Shown here in pieces: positions 45,001 to 51,000 of a stretch of 64,000 nucleotides of DNA. Numbering within the stretch: position 1 is the first letter of the stretch; the number at the start of each line of letters is the position of its first letter. Source of the DNA: Phyllobates terribilis (Eukaryota); assembly GCF_046119375.1 (NCBI RefSeq), contig NW_027362771.1, positions 404,736,001 to 404,800,000 on the forward strand. The letters run 5' to 3'. Made by a program: the position numbers.

Positions 45001-48000
45001 AACACCCCAACAGGCAGGAAGAAGCCGTATGGAGGCCGCAGACAGAAGGCAGGCAACCGTTCCCCTTAACACCAACACGAAGGAAGTTTCCAGTACAACT
45101 GTTAGGTCTTCCCGAGTCTTGTTGTTTTTTAAAGACTCTGCCAATAACCCCAAAATGGCCATTTGCGCCACCTGCTAGGCTAGCATCAGCAGGGGTGGCA
45201 AAACGACCAGCCTGACCACCACCAGCATGATCAGGCACATGGCAGCAAAGTACCCGACTTTGTGGGCCGAACCCCAGGGTCTAGGAACAGTGTCTGTGGG
45301 AGGCACCACTGCTTCTTCCGCTGTTGTGCATGCAAGCCAATCCCCTGTCCATAGTGCATGCGAAGATGCCTCGTGCCCTGCACCAGTCCTTGCACACTCT
45401 CAAGTAGCAGCATCAGGAAGCATGTCTACATCCTTGTCCCAGCGCAGAGTTCAGTTGTCCATACCCCATTCATCGGAACGCAAGCGCAAATACGCAGCCG
45501 ACGCCTAAAGGCCGCACTACTAAATTCCCATATTTCGCGACTGCTTGCGCTCGAAATGTTGCCTTTTAGGCTCGTGGAGACGGAAACATTCTGCAACCTG
45601 ATGGCGGCGGCCATTCCTCGGTACTCGTTCCCCAGCCGCCACTATTTCTCCCGGTGTGCCGTCCCCACATTAAACAAGCACGTGTCCCAAAACATTAGCC
45701 GTGCCCTCAACAGCACAGTTACTGGGAAAGTCCACCTAACCACGGACAAGTGCTTGTGGGCATGGACAGTACATCTTGATGCTGGCACACTGGGTTAACA
45801 TAGTGGAAGCCGGGACCCAGTCAGACCTTGGGACGGAACATGTCCTTCAGACGCCAAGGATCACAGGCCCTAGTTCAATCATGGTTGATTCCACAGTCTA
45901 CAGCTCCTGCACCTCATCCTCCTCAGCCTCCTCCTCCTCTTCAGCCTCCATCTCCGAAATGACCACATCAGTCACAAGCTGGAAGCACTGCAGCGCTGCC
46001 TTGGCCAAGCGGCAACGGGCTGTGCTGAATATAACATGCTTAATGCTTAGGTGACAAGCCGCCCAGCGCTGTAGAGTTGTTTAAAGCTGTAACACAGCAG
46101 CCTGATCTGTGGCTCTCACCGCTAAACATACAGCCAGATGTGGTCATGTGGGACAATGGGCAGAACCTGGTGCCGGAGAAATGACAGCCGGAGTAAATAC
46201 GGTTTCCCTCTATGCCAGTCTTTTCACCGAGCTAAAGAATATGGCTGAGGTGAAATACAACTCCCACTGAGAAGCTGTTTCAGATTGAAAAACATTGGGC
46301 CCACCAGAGGTTTTGACTCTGAGGGCTCACCTTTCTCCCCCACTCAAGAGCCCCAAAGCAGCTGCAAAGTTAGAGCTATCATGAACTTTCCTGATGTAGA
46401 AGCCAGGGCACACCAGAGGATTTTGTGGTGGGACCGTCCAACCCCGCCGAGAAGCAGTCCTGGCTAAGTGAAGTGTGTGGGAAGGTTCTCGGACACTCTA
46501 TGACTGCTTTTTTACTTAGTTGGAAACCCACGCAAACACAGGGAGAAAATACAAAATCCTTGCAGATGTTGTCCTTGCTGGGATTTGAACCAAGGCTTCA
46601 GTGCTAACCACTGATCCAATGTGCTGCCGTTCACCCTCTGATATCTAACAGGCTGGAGAAACTTGCACCTACTGCCTCTCCATCTTCAGCTCCTTTGTGA
46701 GAAACTAATGTGTTTGGGCAACCACTCAGTCAACCAAATAAAATTCCTGAGAAGGAAATTGGGGATGGCTTCGCTACTGGAACTGAGGGCAGTGTTAATA
46801 GCATGGCGTCGTACCATAGTTTACTGGAAATATTGCAGGCTGGAAGGAGGCAAGCAGATTCCCACAGAAAAGTACCAGCAGTAATGTTCAGGGACCTTCT
46901 GAGTCAGTGCACTGGGGAGGGCACGGGTAATGTTGTGGGACCCGTGCTTGTGGAAGGCGGAGGCGATACCGGGAGAAATAGTGGCGGCTGGGAACTGAGT
47001 ATGAACACCCGGCCGCCGCCGCCATGAGGTCGTTGACAGCTTCCACCTCCATGAGCCTAAAAGGCCACATTTCAAGTGCAAGCAGCTGCCCATAAATCTG
47101 GAAGTTTAGTTTTGTGGCCTGTGGGTGGGTGGGTTGCTGGCTGCATACTTGCGCTTGCATTCCAAGTAACAGAAAACTAAGCAGATGGTGGCCTCTATCA
47201 TCATCATGGCCTCACCTCGGCACTATGAACTCTCCTGAAGGAGAAGCCAGGGCCCAGAGTAGATACGTTTTCCCTCCATGCCAGTCCTTTCACTGAGCTA
47301 AAGAATATAGCTGTGGTGAAATACAACTCTCACTGAGAAGCAGTGTCAGACAGAAAAACATTGGGCCCACCAGAGGATTTGATTCTGAGGGCCCACCTTT
47401 TCCCCCGCTCAAGAGCCCCATAGCAGCTGCAAAGTTTGCTCCTATCATAAACTCTCCTGATGGAGATGCCAGGGCCCACCTGAGGATTCTCTGGTGGGCC
47501 CGTCCAGCCCTGCTGAGAAGCAGCCCTGCCTAAGAAAAGTGTGTGGGAAGTTTCCCGGACACTCTATGGCTGCATTTTTAATGTGGATTGGCTCCGTACC
47601 ATCCCTGGCCACATTCACCTGTCCACATGTTTGGGGGTAGGCGGTCCTTCCCAGTAAGTGCACTGGGGAGGGCACGGGTAATGTTGTAGGACCGGTGCTG
47701 CCGGTATGAGGTTGTGAAATGCTTCCACCTCCACGAGCCTAAAAGGCCACATTTCAAGTGCAAGCAGCTTTAGAGGACTTCCTGGGAGAAGTGACAGCTG
47801 GAGTAGATATGGTATCCCAAGTCCTTTGACCAAGCTAAAGAATATGGCTGTGATGAAATACAACTCTCAGAAAAAAAAGCTGTGGACTGGCTCCGTACCA
47901 TCCCAGGCCACATTCATCTGACCACGTGTTTGTGGTTAGGCGATCCTTCCCACTAAGTGCACTGGGGAGAGCACGGGTAATGTTGTGGGACCCGAGCTTG

Positions 48001-51000
48001 TGGAAGGCAGAGACGATCCCGGAGAAATAGTGGCGGCTGGGGACCGAGTATGGCATGAAGTTCTGAAAAGCTTCCGCCTCCATGAGCCTAAAAGGTCACA
48101 TTTCAAGTGCAAGCAGCTGTAAAAAATTTGGCAGTATAGTATTGCAGCCTGTGGGTGGGTGAATGACTGGCTGCATACTTGCACTTGTATTCCAAGGAAT
48201 GGTGTAGGGACAAATGAACGCTGCACAGGGACAAGGACATGGACGGTGATTGTTGCAAATCTGCAATGACAGGTGTATGGCGGGAGGCATCTTCGCATGT
48301 GCCAAGGGTCACTTATGATAGGCACACTTTTAGGCAGTGACCTGGGAGTCAGAAATGCTTCCAGGGGTCTTCCCCATGCTGTTCCCATGTCTTTTCAGCA
48401 CTGTATGCGTGTGTCTAATGATGTGTCACACACCACATGGCCAGATAAGGTTGTAAAATGTTAAAATTACATTTCCTAATGAATGCATTTGTCTTGGTTG
48501 AAAGCAATGCAATAGTGCAAAAACGCATCAAAAACGCTATATGTGAACATAGCCCAAGGTGTGGAGGAGCATTTTTGGTTTGGGTTATTTATTTTGCCTT
48601 ATATACAAGTCATTACCCTGGAAAAGATGTTCCGTAACATATTTCCCAGGAAAATCCATTTTGGTTTCGTTTTTGTATGTTTTATTGTGAGTCCATAATA
48701 GTGTCGTAATACCTCTGACAACGTTGTTGACAGCAGTGACCTGGGAGTCAGAAATGCTTCCAGTGGTCTTCCTCATGCTTTCCCCATGTCATTTGAGCAC
48801 TGTTCCCATCGATTTGGGCAATTTTTAGACCCTCTGCAGACCGTCAGGGGAAGCCGCCTGAAAAATGCTCAAGTTTCCCATAGACTTACATTGGGCTCGT
48901 TGCTCGGGTCGAGCACCTGAGCATTCCAATTTGCTCGACCCGAGCATCGAGCACCCGAGCATTTTAGTGCTCGCCCATCACTATTTAGGACACATCTGGG
49001 GCATGTTAAACAGGTGCTTCAGATATTAAGGGATAACAAACTTTATGCCCAACTAGAAAAATGTGTTTTCGCCGTTCAGGAGGTGCAGTTTTTGGGGTAC
49101 TTGTTGTCATCTTTGGGTTTTCGGAGGGATCCGGAGAAGATCCGTGCTGTCCTTGATTGGGACCGTCCTGAGAACCTGAAGGCTCTACAATGTTTTCTGA
49201 GCTTTACTAATTTTTACCAGAAATTCATCCAAAATTACTCAGTAATTGTGAAACCCCTTATTGACATGACTAAGAAGAGGTCTGATTTTTCCAAATGGTC
49301 GGATGTTTCCCTCCAGGCTTTTTCTTCCTTAAAGAATTATTTTGCCTCTGCACCTATGCTCAGTCACCCCGATGTTTCCCAATCCTTTATTGTGGAAGTT
49401 CATGCCTCGGATATGAGGGTTGAGGCTGTGTTGTCTCAGGGTCCATCCCCTGGTAAATGGCATCCATGCGCCTTCTTTTCTAAAAAATTGTCTTCTGCTG
49501 AGAGAAATTAAGACATGGGTAATAGGGAACTTTTGGCGATCAAATTGACATTTGAAGAATGGCGACATTGGTTGGAGTGGGCTGTTCATCTTGTTACTGT
49601 TAATACTGACCATAAGAACCTGTCATATCTCCAGTCAGCTAAACATTTCAACCCTAGGTAAGCCAGATGGTCCCTGTTTTTTCTAGGTTCAATTTGTTGT
49701 CACTTTTCATCCAGGGGTCAAAAATGTCAAGGCTGATGCTTTGTCCCGGAGCTTTCCTGGTGTTGGTAGCCATGAGAACCCTGCCCTGAAATTCCATTAG
49801 GGTGTAGTCATTTGGGCATTATGTCCTGAGCTGGAGGGTGAGTTTTTGGAGGCTCAGGGGGACGCCCCTGCCTCCTGCCCTTCAGGAAGGTTATTTGTAC
49901 CATCTAATCTGCGCCGTAAAATAATTAAGGAACATCATAACTCTGTGCTTGCTGTTCATCCAGGTGGTAAGGCAACCACAGACCTCCTCTCTCTGTATTT
50001 TTGGTGGCCGGGGTTGCATCAGGATGTGATTGATCACGTATCTGCTTGTAGTATTTGCGCATGTTCTAAGGTTTCGCATACCTGTCCATCTGGTACTCTT
50101 TATCTGCTACCTATCCCTAGTAGGCTATGGACACACTTGTCCATGAATTTTATTACTGACCTACCTTTTTCTGCAGGCAAAATGGTGGTTTTGGTGGTTA
50201 TAGATAGGTTCAGTAAAATGGTCTATTTCGTCGCATTACCTGCACTTCCAAATGCCAAGACACTTGCTCAAATTCATAAATGAGATTGTGAAGCTTTGTG
50301 GGGTTCCCTCCGATGTGGTATCAGATCGGGGGACCCAGTTTGCTTTCAAGTTCTGGAAGGAATTCTGTTCTCGACTGAGGGTGCAGCTGTCCTTTTCCTC
50401 TGCCTTCCACCCTCAGTCGAATGGACAGACCAAGCGCGTCAGTCAGAATTTGGAGACCTACCTCAGGTGTTTCGTCACCAAAAATCAGGAGGATTGGTCA
50501 TCCTACTTACCGCTGGCAGAATTTGCCATTAATAATCATCATCAAGAATCCACTGGCAGGTCACCGTTCTTTGGTGCATACGGTTTCCATCCACAGTTTG
50601 GTACCATTAGTGGGGGAGGAGCTTCGCGAGTTCCTGAGGAAGAACATTTTGTTTCATCGTTCTCCTCAGTGTGGCAGGGGGTTCTGAGTAATTTACAGAT
50701 CTTGGGAGACAGGTATAAATGTATGGCTGAGAGAAAACACTTGCCAGGTCCGAACCTGAATGTGAATGACTTTGTGTGGTTGTCTACCAGCAATATTAAG
50801 TTGAAAGTACCTTCTTGGAAGTTGGTCCCTATAAAATAACCGGCGTCATTAACCCAGCAGTGTTTCATCTTGAGCTTCCTTAGGCCCTTATGGTCCACAA
50901 TGTTTTCCACAGGTCCTTACTCAAGAAGTATGTGGAACCTCTTGAGCCCTCACCTCTACCGCCACCCCCAGTAATGGTTGATGGTAATCTGGAGTTTCAG

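What the first reader, a model, noticed from the sequence alone, without database searches (positions are those of the whole stretch)
45350..48308. Mu-killer-like layout: a hAT copy carrying three antisense copies of its own transposase segment
Seen: after the sense transposase breaks off at about 46165, three inverted fragments (about 46885-47170, 47590-47770 and 47885-48308) translate on the minus strand as LLALEMWPFRL...YSVPSRHYFS, matching the sense segment 45350-45780. They alternate with a second module (about 46166-46505, 47225-47580, 47785-47870). The element has intact TIRs and a perfect TSD. Established: maize Mu killer is an inverted, partially deleted MuDR whose hairpin RNA silences the family. 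Inference: read-through from the hAT promoter would give an imperfect long dsRNA (identity looks like roughly 70-75%), making this a mobile self-silencing allele.
Basis: partly seen in the sequence, partly recalled or inferred. Interest (0 to 1): 0.68.

Follow-up and report, generated by a model that had tools for sequence, protein, structure and literature searches.

The report
Decayed frog hAT transposon with antisense array
This is an old, broken, non-autonomous hAT transposon whose missing middle is filled by a tandemly amplified block that includes backward pieces of a transposase gene; the layout is real, but it looks like ordinary transposon wreckage, not a working self-silencer.

Summary
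Window 41608-48983 is one hAT element with a YARNG-type end, 15-nt imperfect TIRs and a perfect 8-bp TSD. It sits precisely inside the RT gene of an older Ty3/gypsy-like element. Its transposase remnant covers only aa 35-413 of a 905-aa relative. Between that remnant and the 573-bp 3' end lie 2.2 kb of filler: three antisense transposase fragments (as1-3, aa ~180-282) alternating with three copies of an unrelated module (M2).

The antisense fragments are no closer to this copy's sense segment (71-74%) than to other copies in the window. They form their own clade (500/500 bootstraps) with a fourth copy outside the element at 36718-37045, and they differ from sense evenly across codon positions. 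This points to one old capture followed by tandem amplification. The duplications (K2P 0.17-0.21) are older than the host's LTR divergence (0.10), so the element probably moved here already carrying the array.

A read-through RNA is predicted to pair sense with antisense, but in 57 short stacks (longest 24 bp). Only 8 21-mers are shared with this copy's own sense segment, and none with the four other copies. Expression and small RNAs could not be tested.

The parts
41608..48983 (+). Focal hAT element (copy C), TIR to TIR, 7,376 bp, non-autonomous
   Evidence: The TIR motif is found at both ends. The flanks carry the same 8-bp TSD. The insertion is exact when compared with a paralogous RT.
41600..41607 (.). 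Left copy of the 8-bp target-site duplication TTTAGGAC (right copy at 48984-48991)
   Evidence: read directly; 8 of 8 identical.
41608..41622 (+). 5' TIR (starts TAGTG, which fits YARNG); its partner is at 48969-48983 on the minus strand
   Evidence: 12 of 15 positions agree between the two ends.
42505..44133 (.). Nested Tc1-like element in the 5' subterminal repeats of copy C, with 278-bp TIRs and flanked by TA/TA
   Evidence: TIRs 93.9% identical; HTH_Tnp_Tc3_2 and DDE_3 matches; junctions.
45035..46172 (+). Transposase remnant of copy C (one broken gene): covers aa 35-413 of a 905-aa relative and lacks the C-terminal half, including the hAT dimerisation domain
   Evidence: tblastn with P0001: 2 HSPs in 2 frames, 7 in-HSP stops; domain positions in P0001.
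45357..45772 (+). Sense segment that the antisense fragments match
46177..46514 (.). M2a, first copy of the non-hAT module
   Evidence: No detectable similarity to copies A, B or D.
46515..46884 (.). X, a unique filler stretch with no match elsewhere in the window
   Evidence: No Rfam or tRNA hit.
46885..47170 (-). as1, antisense transposase fragment (about aa 180-266)
47171..47224 (.). Linker between as1 and M2b; the as-tail/linker/M2 junction is also present at 36718-36831
   Evidence: 77.5% over 120 nt.
47225..47580 (.). M2b, second copy of the module
   Evidence: K2P to M2a is 0.17. Folds with z = -3.6.
47582..47775 (-). as2, antisense fragment with an internal gap relative to as1 and as3
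47785..47869 (.). M2c, partial third copy of the module
47881..48308 (-). as3, the longest antisense fragment (matches sense 45357-45772)
48334..48404 (+). Direct duplicate of 48733-48803 (3' subterminal sequence)
   Evidence: 91.5%; K2P 0.09.
48411..48983 (+). 3' terminal region of the hAT family, colinear with copy A 12782-12216
   Evidence: 86.7% over 580 nt.
36718..37045 (-). as0 composite: a fourth as-tail/linker/M2/antisense block. It lies outside the focal element, downstream of hAT copy B, in the same relative orientation.
   Evidence: joins the antisense clade in 499 of 500 bootstraps.
39011..51763 (+). Host Ty3/gypsy chromovirus-like LTR element (the virus-like stretch) that the focal hAT interrupts; described only
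   Evidence: LTR pair, K2P 0.10; gag, PR, RT, RNase H, IN and chromo domains; broken gene counts.

Best explanation
The focal sequence is an old, internally deleted, non-autonomous hAT element of the Ds2 / filler-DNA kind.

What it keeps and what it has lost:
- It keeps the 5' part of the family, up to about 46% of the transposase, and the 573-bp 3' end.
- About 2.4 kb has been replaced: the C-terminal half of the gene and the 3' tandem repeats.
- The replacement is a 2.2-kb array of a composite unit, [unrelated module M2 + an inverted piece of a hAT transposase gene].

Proposed history (inferred):
- The inverted piece was captured once, long ago.
- It then decayed neutrally and was multiplied by tandem duplication. 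This family is prone to tandem duplication: it also carries 150-bp, 132-bp and 52-bp internal arrays.
- The element moved into its present site, the RT gene of a gypsy-like element, already carrying at least two antisense copies.
- The capture itself is most simply explained by interrupted or template-switching repair, or by inter-element recombination. This step is inferred, not shown.

What it does now (inferred):
- If the plus strand is transcribed, from the hAT 5' region or from the host LTR (which has the same orientation), the RNA would form a long but heavily interrupted duplex.
- That is a by-product, not a working silencer. The duplex is too mismatched to yield small RNAs that match other family copies.
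For: Family and boundaries:
- hAT identity: zf-BED and Dimer_Tnp_hAT matches. Frog 'ZBED-like' relatives are found, with 65% identity over the full length to the 905-aa protein P0001.
- TIRs, TSD and exact insertion.
- Copy C is colinear with copy A up to 46176 and again from 48411.
- The remnant covers aa 35-413 of 905.

Origin of the filler:
- M2 and X show no similarity to hAT copies above shuffled controls.
- The antisense fragments form one clade in 500/500 and 499/500 bootstraps. They group with C's own sense segment in only 29/500 and 22/500.
- Antisense-to-sense identity is 63-76%, versus 77-88% among sense copies and 82-87% among as1-3.
- Antisense-versus-sense differences are spread evenly over codon positions. 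For example, D versus as1 gives 18/86, 24/87 and 22/86.
- A fourth copy with the same as-tail/linker/M2 junction lies at 36718-37045.

Timing (K2P):
- Host LTR pair 0.10 (n=515).
- M2a-M2b 0.17 (n=337).
- as1-as3 0.21 (n=271).
- Sense-antisense 0.32-0.33.

Pairing:
- The MFE structure of 45300-48330 puts 193 pairs between sense and as3 and 99 between sense and as1.
- These fall into 57 stacks, the longest being 24, 19 and 19 bp.
- Shared 21-mers with C are 5, 0 and 3 for as1, as2 and as3. With copies A, B, D and E the count is 0.

Literature and family habit:
- Filler-DNA hAT derivatives are described in PMC3260210 and PMC3014272 (passages read).
- Tandem arrays in this family.
Against: - Nothing here measures transcription, small RNAs or methylation, so a weak biological effect of the imperfect duplex cannot be excluded.
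- Duplex energies are far below shuffled controls (as3: -459 versus -226 +/- 9 kcal/mol, 30 shuffles). The arms would therefore pair if they were co-transcribed.
- The longest exact runs are with C's own sense segment (25, 19 and 23 nt) and not with other copies (19 nt or less). This is a slight hint of linkage.
- Both places where the antisense/M2 block occurs lie downstream of a sense copy in the same relative orientation (B and C). That could mean the block is a regular part of a sub-lineage and not accidental filler.
- The dating assumes equal neutral rates, LTRs identical at insertion, and no gene conversion.
- The repair mechanism of capture is inferred. The left junction shows only imperfect microhomology.
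- Only 5 copies, all from one 64-kb window, were available.
Confidence: 0.7

Rival explanations
1. The element is a Mu-killer-like mobile self-silencing allele: read-through transcription gives a hairpin RNA, the hairpin is processed into small RNAs, and those small RNAs silence the hAT family.
For: - Sense and inverted transposase fragments lie on one strand within one mobile unit.
- The predicted long-range pairing is much stronger than in shuffles.
- The host LTR element has the same orientation and could supply a flanking promoter (inference).
- Precedents exist in maize. For Mu killer I saw the abstract of PMC3440606 in the listing. For Ac/Ds composite insertions I read the abstract of bioRxiv 10.1101/2020.01.07.897926.
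Against: - The arms are about 26% different and contain indels.
- 48 of 57 stacks are 6 bp or shorter.
- 8 shared 21-mers with the element's own sense segment, 0 with the other four copies.
- The antisense fragments do not derive from this copy's own sense segment.
- The arms were probably already at least ~0.2 K2P apart when the element inserted here, and it was still mobilised then. That argues against effective family silencing (inference).
- The inverted part lacks the TIR and 5' region. There is no TIR match inside 46177-48410.
- All five copies in the window have broken genes, so there is little left to silence.
Confidence: 0.1
2. The antisense/M2 array is a regular, inherited part of a hAT sub-lineage, placed just upstream of the 3' terminal region. 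On this view copy B is the long form (full-length gene, then tandem repeats, then array), and copy C is a simple internal-deletion derivative of such a long form, not a product of filler capture at the deletion.
For: - as0 (36718-37045) lies after copy B's 3' tandem-repeat region, which runs to about 36481. It has the same orientation relative to the sense gene as in C.
- In C the array directly precedes the 3' terminal region.
- The as-tail/linker/M2 junction is shared between the two loci.
- In the sense tree, B, C and D group apart from A, which lacks the array.
Against: - Copy B has no recognisable 3' terminal region or 3' TIR in the window, so it is unproven that as0 lies inside B.
- The 236 nt between B's repeats and as0 match nothing.
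- Copy A, complete with TIRs and TSD, has no array.
- The 3' parts of D and E are not visible in the window.
- The long stem of the antisense clade (0.13-0.15) places the capture at or before the common ancestor of all five sense copies.
Confidence: 0.15
3. The inverted fragments come from a different hAT subfamily that diverged under selection, and were brought in by recombination between unlike elements.
For: - Antisense-to-sense identity (63-76%) is lower than any sense-to-sense identity (77-88%).
- A second hAT family is present in the window at 58218-64000, 41% amino-acid identity to P0001.
Against: - Differences are not concentrated at third codon positions, so the divergence looks neutral.
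- An exhaustive protein search with the as1 reading frame found nothing closer than 60-63% identity (14 hits, best E 1.7e-8).
- The as1 fragment is 65% identical to P0001 over 54 aa, the same range as the sense copies.
Confidence: 0.05

Closest known systems
Ds2-type / 'filler DNA' non-autonomous hAT elements (maize Ac/Ds family; hobo_AC derivatives in Anolis)
   Same: - 8-bp TSD, short TIRs and family-specific subterminal regions are retained.
- A large internal part of the autonomous element is replaced by unrelated or rearranged DNA.
- The element can still be moved in trans.
Sources: PMC3260210 abstract and Background passages; PMC3014272 passages.
   Different: Here part of the filler is an inverted, tandemly amplified piece of a transposase gene of the same family, alternating with an unrelated module. 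I did not see such a case in the passages I read. I did not read either paper in full, and supplements were closed.
Mu killer (maize MuDR)
   Same: An inverted partial duplication of a transposase gene that could give a hairpin if transcribed from a neighbouring promoter (abstract of PMC3440606 as shown in the listing).
   Different: [quoted passage not shown]
- Here the arms are 190-430 nt and about 26% diverged, lie in the middle of the gene, and have no TIR or promoter copy.
- The superfamily and the host kingdom are different.
- No silencing data exist for this element.
Ac/Ds composite insertions made by alternative transposition (Wang et al., bioRxiv 10.1101/2020.01.07.897926)
   Same: Same superfamily (hAT). 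Inverted repeats of fractured transposon fragments, transcribed from the Ac promoter or a flanking gene promoter, give dsRNA and siRNAs (abstract and section headings).
   Different: - Those loci arise from the termini of two nearby elements, together with re-replication.
- Here there is no extra terminus inside the array.
- The whole is itself a transposed unit with one TSD, and its arms are old and diverged.
TE-internal tandem arrays (satellite-like expansions inside DNA transposons)
   Same: The three antisense copies and three M2 copies are explained by tandem duplication of one unit. The same family carries 150/151-bp, 132-bp and 52-bp arrays.
   Different: The unit is about 0.8-1.07 kb and is itself a chimera of non-hAT DNA and an inverted gene fragment. 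This comparison rests on my general knowledge; I read no paper on it.

Membership tests
hAT superfamily element | 8-bp target-site duplication | tested here: met
   TTTAGGAC on both sides, 8/8. Copy A has ATTAGGTT. The host versus paralogue length difference equals 8 nt.
hAT superfamily element | Short TIRs with a YARNG terminal motif (as stated in PMC3014272) | tested here: met
   Both ends start TAGTG. 12 of 15 TIR positions agree.
hAT superfamily element | Transposase with a BED zinc finger and the hAT C-terminal dimerisation domain | tested here: met
   Met for the family: in copy D, zf-BED has E 1.1e-8 and Dimer_Tnp_hAT has E 3.5e-8. The focal copy keeps only aa 35-413 of 905 and so lacks the dimerisation domain.
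Non-autonomous (Ds2-like, filler-DNA) derivative | Both termini and subterminal regions retained, with the internal part replaced by DNA unrelated to the autonomous element | tested here: met
   The focal copy is colinear with copy A to 46176 and from 48411. M2 and X do not exceed shuffled controls against copies A, B and D. Part of the filler, however, is hAT-derived in inverse orientation.
Mu-killer-like hairpin silencer | Inverted duplication of the element's own transposase sequence | tested here: inconclusive
   Inverted transposase fragments are present. They are not closer to the element's own sense segment than to other copies, and they form a separate clade.
Mu-killer-like hairpin silencer | Long, near-perfect complementarity able to give small RNAs that match the family | tested here: not met
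   Identity is 69-74%. The longest stacks are 24, 19 and 19 bp. 8 21-mers are shared with the element's own sense segment and 0 with four other copies.
Mu-killer-like hairpin silencer | Inverted copy includes the TIR / 5' regulatory region | tested here: not met
   The fragments map to aa ~180-282 of the protein. There is no TIR match within 46177-48410.
Mu-killer-like hairpin silencer | Transcription across both arms, small RNAs from them, and heritable trans-silencing | not testable with these tools
Ac/Ds-type composite insertion (alternative transposition) | Extra transposon termini or fractured ends inside the rearranged block | tested here: not met
   A TIR pattern search with up to 3 mismatches gave 9 matches in the window, none within 46177-48410.

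The most novel reading that the evidence does not exclude
A sub-lineage of this frog hAT family has carried, for a long time and through repeated transposition, a cis-linked array of antisense transposase fragments just upstream of its 3' end. The array is seen in the deleted copy C and possibly in the long copy B. On this reading, the array acts or once acted as a built-in source of antisense RNA (piRNA or siRNA precursor) that dampens the family. It would be a vertebrate, element-borne counterpart of Mu killer.
Probability: 0.06. Interest if true: 0.65.

Novelty: new member of a known kind. Interest (0 to 1): 0.25.

Why it matters
If the silencer reading were true, it would be a rare animal example of a DNA transposon spreading its own antisense trigger. 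It would also bear on how TE-rich frog genomes restrain hAT elements.

On the evidence here, the element is instead a clear, datable example of how non-autonomous hAT elements are built. The steps are an internal deletion, capture of foreign and inverted self-like DNA, tandem amplification, and then further transposition into another mobile element.

It also carries a practical caution. A hairpin layout alone does not show silencing: divergence between the arms, and who the arms are related to, must be checked.

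Tried and rejected
- Chance match: rejected. BLAST E-values range from 1e-54 to 4e-12.
- Fragments copied from the element's own sense segment: rejected, based on the identity matrix and the tree.
- Source in a different subfamily under selection: not supported, based on codon-position counts and the exhaustive protein search.
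- M2 or X derived from another part of the hAT: local alignments against copies A, B and D did not exceed shuffled controls in a convincing way. The best scores were 16-17, against shuffle maxima of 14-18.
- X as a tRNA-like or SINE RNA: no ARAGORN hit. The only Rfam hit was a sub-threshold chance match. My impression that it looks SINE-like is recalled and unverified.
- as0 continuing beyond the 37046-38235 insertion, or an antisense body lying left of 36718: not supported. Scores fell within the shuffle range.
- Finding the M2/antisense junction elsewhere through predicted proteins: no candidate found (near-length proteins only; longer and shorter proteins were not searched).
- The bacterial promoter/terminator scan, genome contigs (prokaryotes only) and the phage, plasmid and E. 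coli collections were not used, because they cannot bear on a frog transposon.

Full report
**Setting**

The window has no N and is dense with mobile elements. One hAT family occurs five times:
- Copy A (minus strand), 12216-20041. It is complete, with TSD ATTAGGTT, and carries two nested insertions.
- Copy B (plus strand), from 27044. It is followed by a 52-bp satellite of 72 units. No 3' TIR was found.
- Copy C (plus strand), 41608-48983. This is the focal element.
- Copy D (plus strand), from 53467. It abuts another hAT-like end at 58218.
- Copy E (minus strand), 1-2281. It is cut by the window start.

The family is hAT by several tests. Copy D gives zf-BED (E 1.1e-8) and Dimer_Tnp_hAT (E 3.5e-8). 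The ends start TAGTG and the TSD is 8 bp.

The closest named proteins are from dendrobatid frogs. P0001, 'zinc finger BED domain-containing protein 6-like' of Anomaloglossus baeobatrachus (905 aa), is 65% identical over the whole 610-aa ORF of copy D. Fragments from Ranitomeya imitator reach 78%. I infer from these names that the window comes from a poison-frog-like anuran. A passage of PMC11152451 says Ty3, Tc1 and hAT elements are among the most abundant repeats in such a genome. That fits what the window shows.

**The observation**

- Homology of C to the other copies stops at 46176 and resumes at 48411. From there, 573 bp run colinear with the 3' end of copy A to the TIR.
- Between these points lie, in order: M2a (46177-46514), a unique stretch X (46515-46884), as1 (46885-47170), a 54-nt linker, M2b (47225-47580), as2 (47582-47775), M2c (47785-47869), as3 (47881-48308), 25 nt of unknown origin, and a 71-nt direct duplicate of 48733-48803.
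- The antisense fragments match sense 45357-45772 at 69-72% in BLAST (E 1e-54 for as3, 3e-42 for as1). Ungapped alignment gives 71-74%.
- The TSD is perfect. The TIRs agree at 12 of 15 positions.

The element sits exactly in the RT gene of a Ty3/gypsy chromovirus-like element at about 39011-51763.
- A paralogous pol protein aligns up to aa 212 on the left flank and from aa 212 on the right flank.
- The paralogue has 28 nt where the host has 28 nt plus the 8-nt duplication.
- So 41608-48983 inserted as one unit.

**State of the genes (counts only)**

Against P0001:
- Copy C: aa 35-413 of 905, 2 HSPs in 2 frames, 7 stops.
- Copy A: 5 HSPs in 3 frames, 10 stops.
- Copy B: 4 HSPs in 3 frames, 6 stops.
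- Copy D: 3 HSPs in 2 frames, no stop inside HSPs, plus one internal deletion relative to C.
- Copy E: 3 HSPs in 3 frames, 4 stops, cut by the window start.

No copy in the window has an unbroken transposase gene. The antisense fragments correspond to aa ~180-282. That places them between the BED finger (aa 60-108) and the C-terminal dimerisation domain (aa 818-885).

The host gypsy-like element is broken by the hAT insertion, by at least 6 stops within aligned segments, and by several frame changes.

**Where the antisense fragments come from**

- They are not closer to C's own sense segment (74, 71 and 73%) than to A (73, 71, 73%) or D (73, 68, 72%).
- Among themselves they are 82-87% identical. 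Sense copies are 77-88% identical to each other.
- In neighbour-joining trees the antisense fragments form a clade in 500 of 500 bootstraps. With E and as0 included the figure is 499 of 500. The stem is 0.13-0.15 long.
- Grouping with C's sense segment occurs in only 29 and 22 of 500 bootstraps.
- They share indels that no sense copy has (alignment).
- Differences between antisense and sense are even across codon positions. D versus as1 gives 18/86, 24/87 and 22/86. D versus as3 gives 20/82, 21/82 and 23/82. This is neutral decay, not divergence of a second functional lineage.
- An exhaustive search with the as1 reading frame found 14 proteins, the best at 60-63% identity. No closer source family is visible.
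- A fourth block, as0, lies outside the element at 36718-37045. It repeats the same order: as-tail, linker, M2, antisense. It is 77.5% identical over the junction and 78.8% over the antisense part.
- as3, the last copy, extends further into the gene than as1. as1 ends at the same point as the as0 tail. This is the pattern expected if a unit inside one longer inverted fragment was tandemly duplicated.

Together these results point to one old capture followed by amplification. They do not fit three copies of 'its own' segment.

**Relative dating (K2P)**

- Host LTR pair: 0.10 (n=515).
- M2a-M2b: 0.17 (n=337).
- as1-as3: 0.21 (n=271).
- as2-as3: 0.12 (n=118) and 0.22 (n=79).
- Sense-antisense: 0.32-0.33.
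- C-D sense: 0.12-0.145.
- C-A sense: 0.18.

The hAT must have entered the host after the host itself inserted. Anything duplicated in place should therefore differ by no more than about 0.10. At least the first duplication inside the array is older than that. The sense and antisense arms would already have been roughly 0.2 apart at that time.

I infer that C was mobilised into this site already carrying the array. So the array did not stop the family from being active then. This inference rests on equal neutral rates, LTRs identical at insertion and no gene conversion.

**Pairing potential**

- The minimum-energy fold of a hypothetical plus-strand RNA 45300-48330 (-1227.6 kcal/mol) places 193 pairs between the sense segment and as3, and 99 between sense and as1.
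- Duplex energies are far below those of 30 dinucleotide shuffles. as1 gives -342 versus -183 +/- 8, as2 gives -216 versus -122 +/- 6, and as3 gives -459 versus -226 +/- 9 kcal/mol.
- So 'pairing too poor to form a duplex' is not the case.
- But the duplex is fragmented. It has 57 stacks, the longest 24, 19 and 19 bp, and 48 of the 57 are 6 bp or shorter.
- Exact 21-mers shared with C's sense segment number 5 (as1), 0 (as2) and 3 (as3). With copies A, B, D and E the count is 0 for every fragment.
- Small RNAs cut from such a duplex would therefore match almost nothing else in the family.
- The inverted part carries no TIR or 5' region.

**What the other modules are**

- M2 and X show no similarity to copies A, B or D beyond shuffled controls.
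- There is no Rfam family above threshold and no tRNA.
- There is no Pfam match for their ORFs.
- M2b folds more stably than shuffles (z = -3.6) and contains repeated GGGCCC-type local hairpins.
- An ORF across the M2b/as2 junction found no protein in the large database at near lengths.
- Their origin stays unknown.

**Mechanism**

Shown:
- A TIR/TSD-bounded element with an internal replacement.
- A single-origin antisense clade.
- Tandem amplification.
- An insertion into the host that is later than the first duplication.

Inferred:
- The replacement arose by interrupted or template-switching repair, or by recombination between elements. This is as described for Ds2 and hobo_AC derivatives with filler DNA (PMC3260210 abstract and Background passages; PMC3014272 passages).
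- The left junction has only a loose microhomology between the hAT sequence and the start of M2.

A rival I cannot exclude (confidence 0.15) is that the array is a standing feature of a sub-lineage, placed just before the 3' terminal region. as0 lies right after copy B's 3' repeat region in the same orientation. B, C and D group apart from A, which lacks the array. But B's 3' end is not identifiable, and the 3' parts of D and E are out of view.

**Comparison with known systems**

- The layout resembles Mu killer (abstract of PMC3440606 as listed).
- Within the same superfamily, it resembles the Ac/Ds composite insertions that give dsRNA and siRNAs (abstract of bioRxiv 10.1101/2020.01.07.897926).
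- It fails the features that make those loci work: near-perfect arms and inclusion of terminal or regulatory sequence.
- It lacks the extra termini expected of alternative transposition.
- Membership as a hAT non-autonomous, filler-DNA element is met on every feature tested.

**Limits**

- No genome of the source species and no RNA or small-RNA data were available.
- Genome contigs holds only prokaryotes and was not used.
- Supplements of the papers were not consulted.
- The family census covers five copies. Only two of them (A and C) show both ends.
- My two literature searches for animal precedents returned nothing specific to a vertebrate hAT with an internal antisense array. That is not proof that none is in print.

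**Verdict**

It is a new member of a known kind: a decayed non-autonomous hAT with a rearranged interior. The self-silencing reading is possible in principle for the distant past. It is not supported for the present sequence. Interest 0.25.

Noticed in passing
window 5012-8333: Two Tc1/Sleeping-Beauty-like elements lie tail-to-tail, about 40-65 nt apart (5012-6657 plus strand, 6699-8333 minus strand). The arms are 97.4% identical over 1,606 aligned nt. The longest exact run is 251 nt, and 840 of 1,626 21-mers are shared. This is a far better long-hairpin candidate than the focal hAT.
   Followed up: partly
window 21558-26548 (minus strand): A young Ty3/gypsy chromovirus-like LTR element (virus-like; described only). 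Its LTRs have K2P 0.007 (n=421). gag, protease, RT, RNase H, integrase and chromodomain lie in one frame, interrupted by two stops. A solo LTR of the same family (94-95% identical) is nested in hAT copy A at 14663-15093.
   Followed up: partly
window 39011-51763: The older gypsy-like host of the focal hAT. LTR K2P is 0.10. Its coding region is broken by the 7.4-kb hAT insertion, by at least 6 stops inside aligned segments, and by several frame changes.
   Followed up: yes
window 32395-36151: A 52-bp satellite of about 72 units (83% matches) directly after the 3' region of hAT copy B. The same family also has 150/151-bp 5' arrays (17484-17815, 27714-28706, 54165-54797) and a 132-bp 3' array (12924-13554).
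   Followed up: no
window 37046-38235: A 1.19-kb insertion with perfect 38-bp terminal inverted repeats immediately after the as0 block. It was not classified.
   Followed up: no
window 58218-64000: A second, different hAT family. It has a TIR-like start at 58218. On the minus strand at 62015-63998 it has a transposase C-terminal half, 41% identical to P0001, with Dimer_Tnp_hAT at E 2.5e-15. It abuts or is nested in the 3' part of copy D and runs off the window.
   Followed up: no
window 18126-19694: An element nested in the 5' region of hAT copy A, with about 450-bp inverted ends that are 94.9% identical (18126-18576 versus 19243-19694). Its ORFs have no Pfam match.
   Followed up: no
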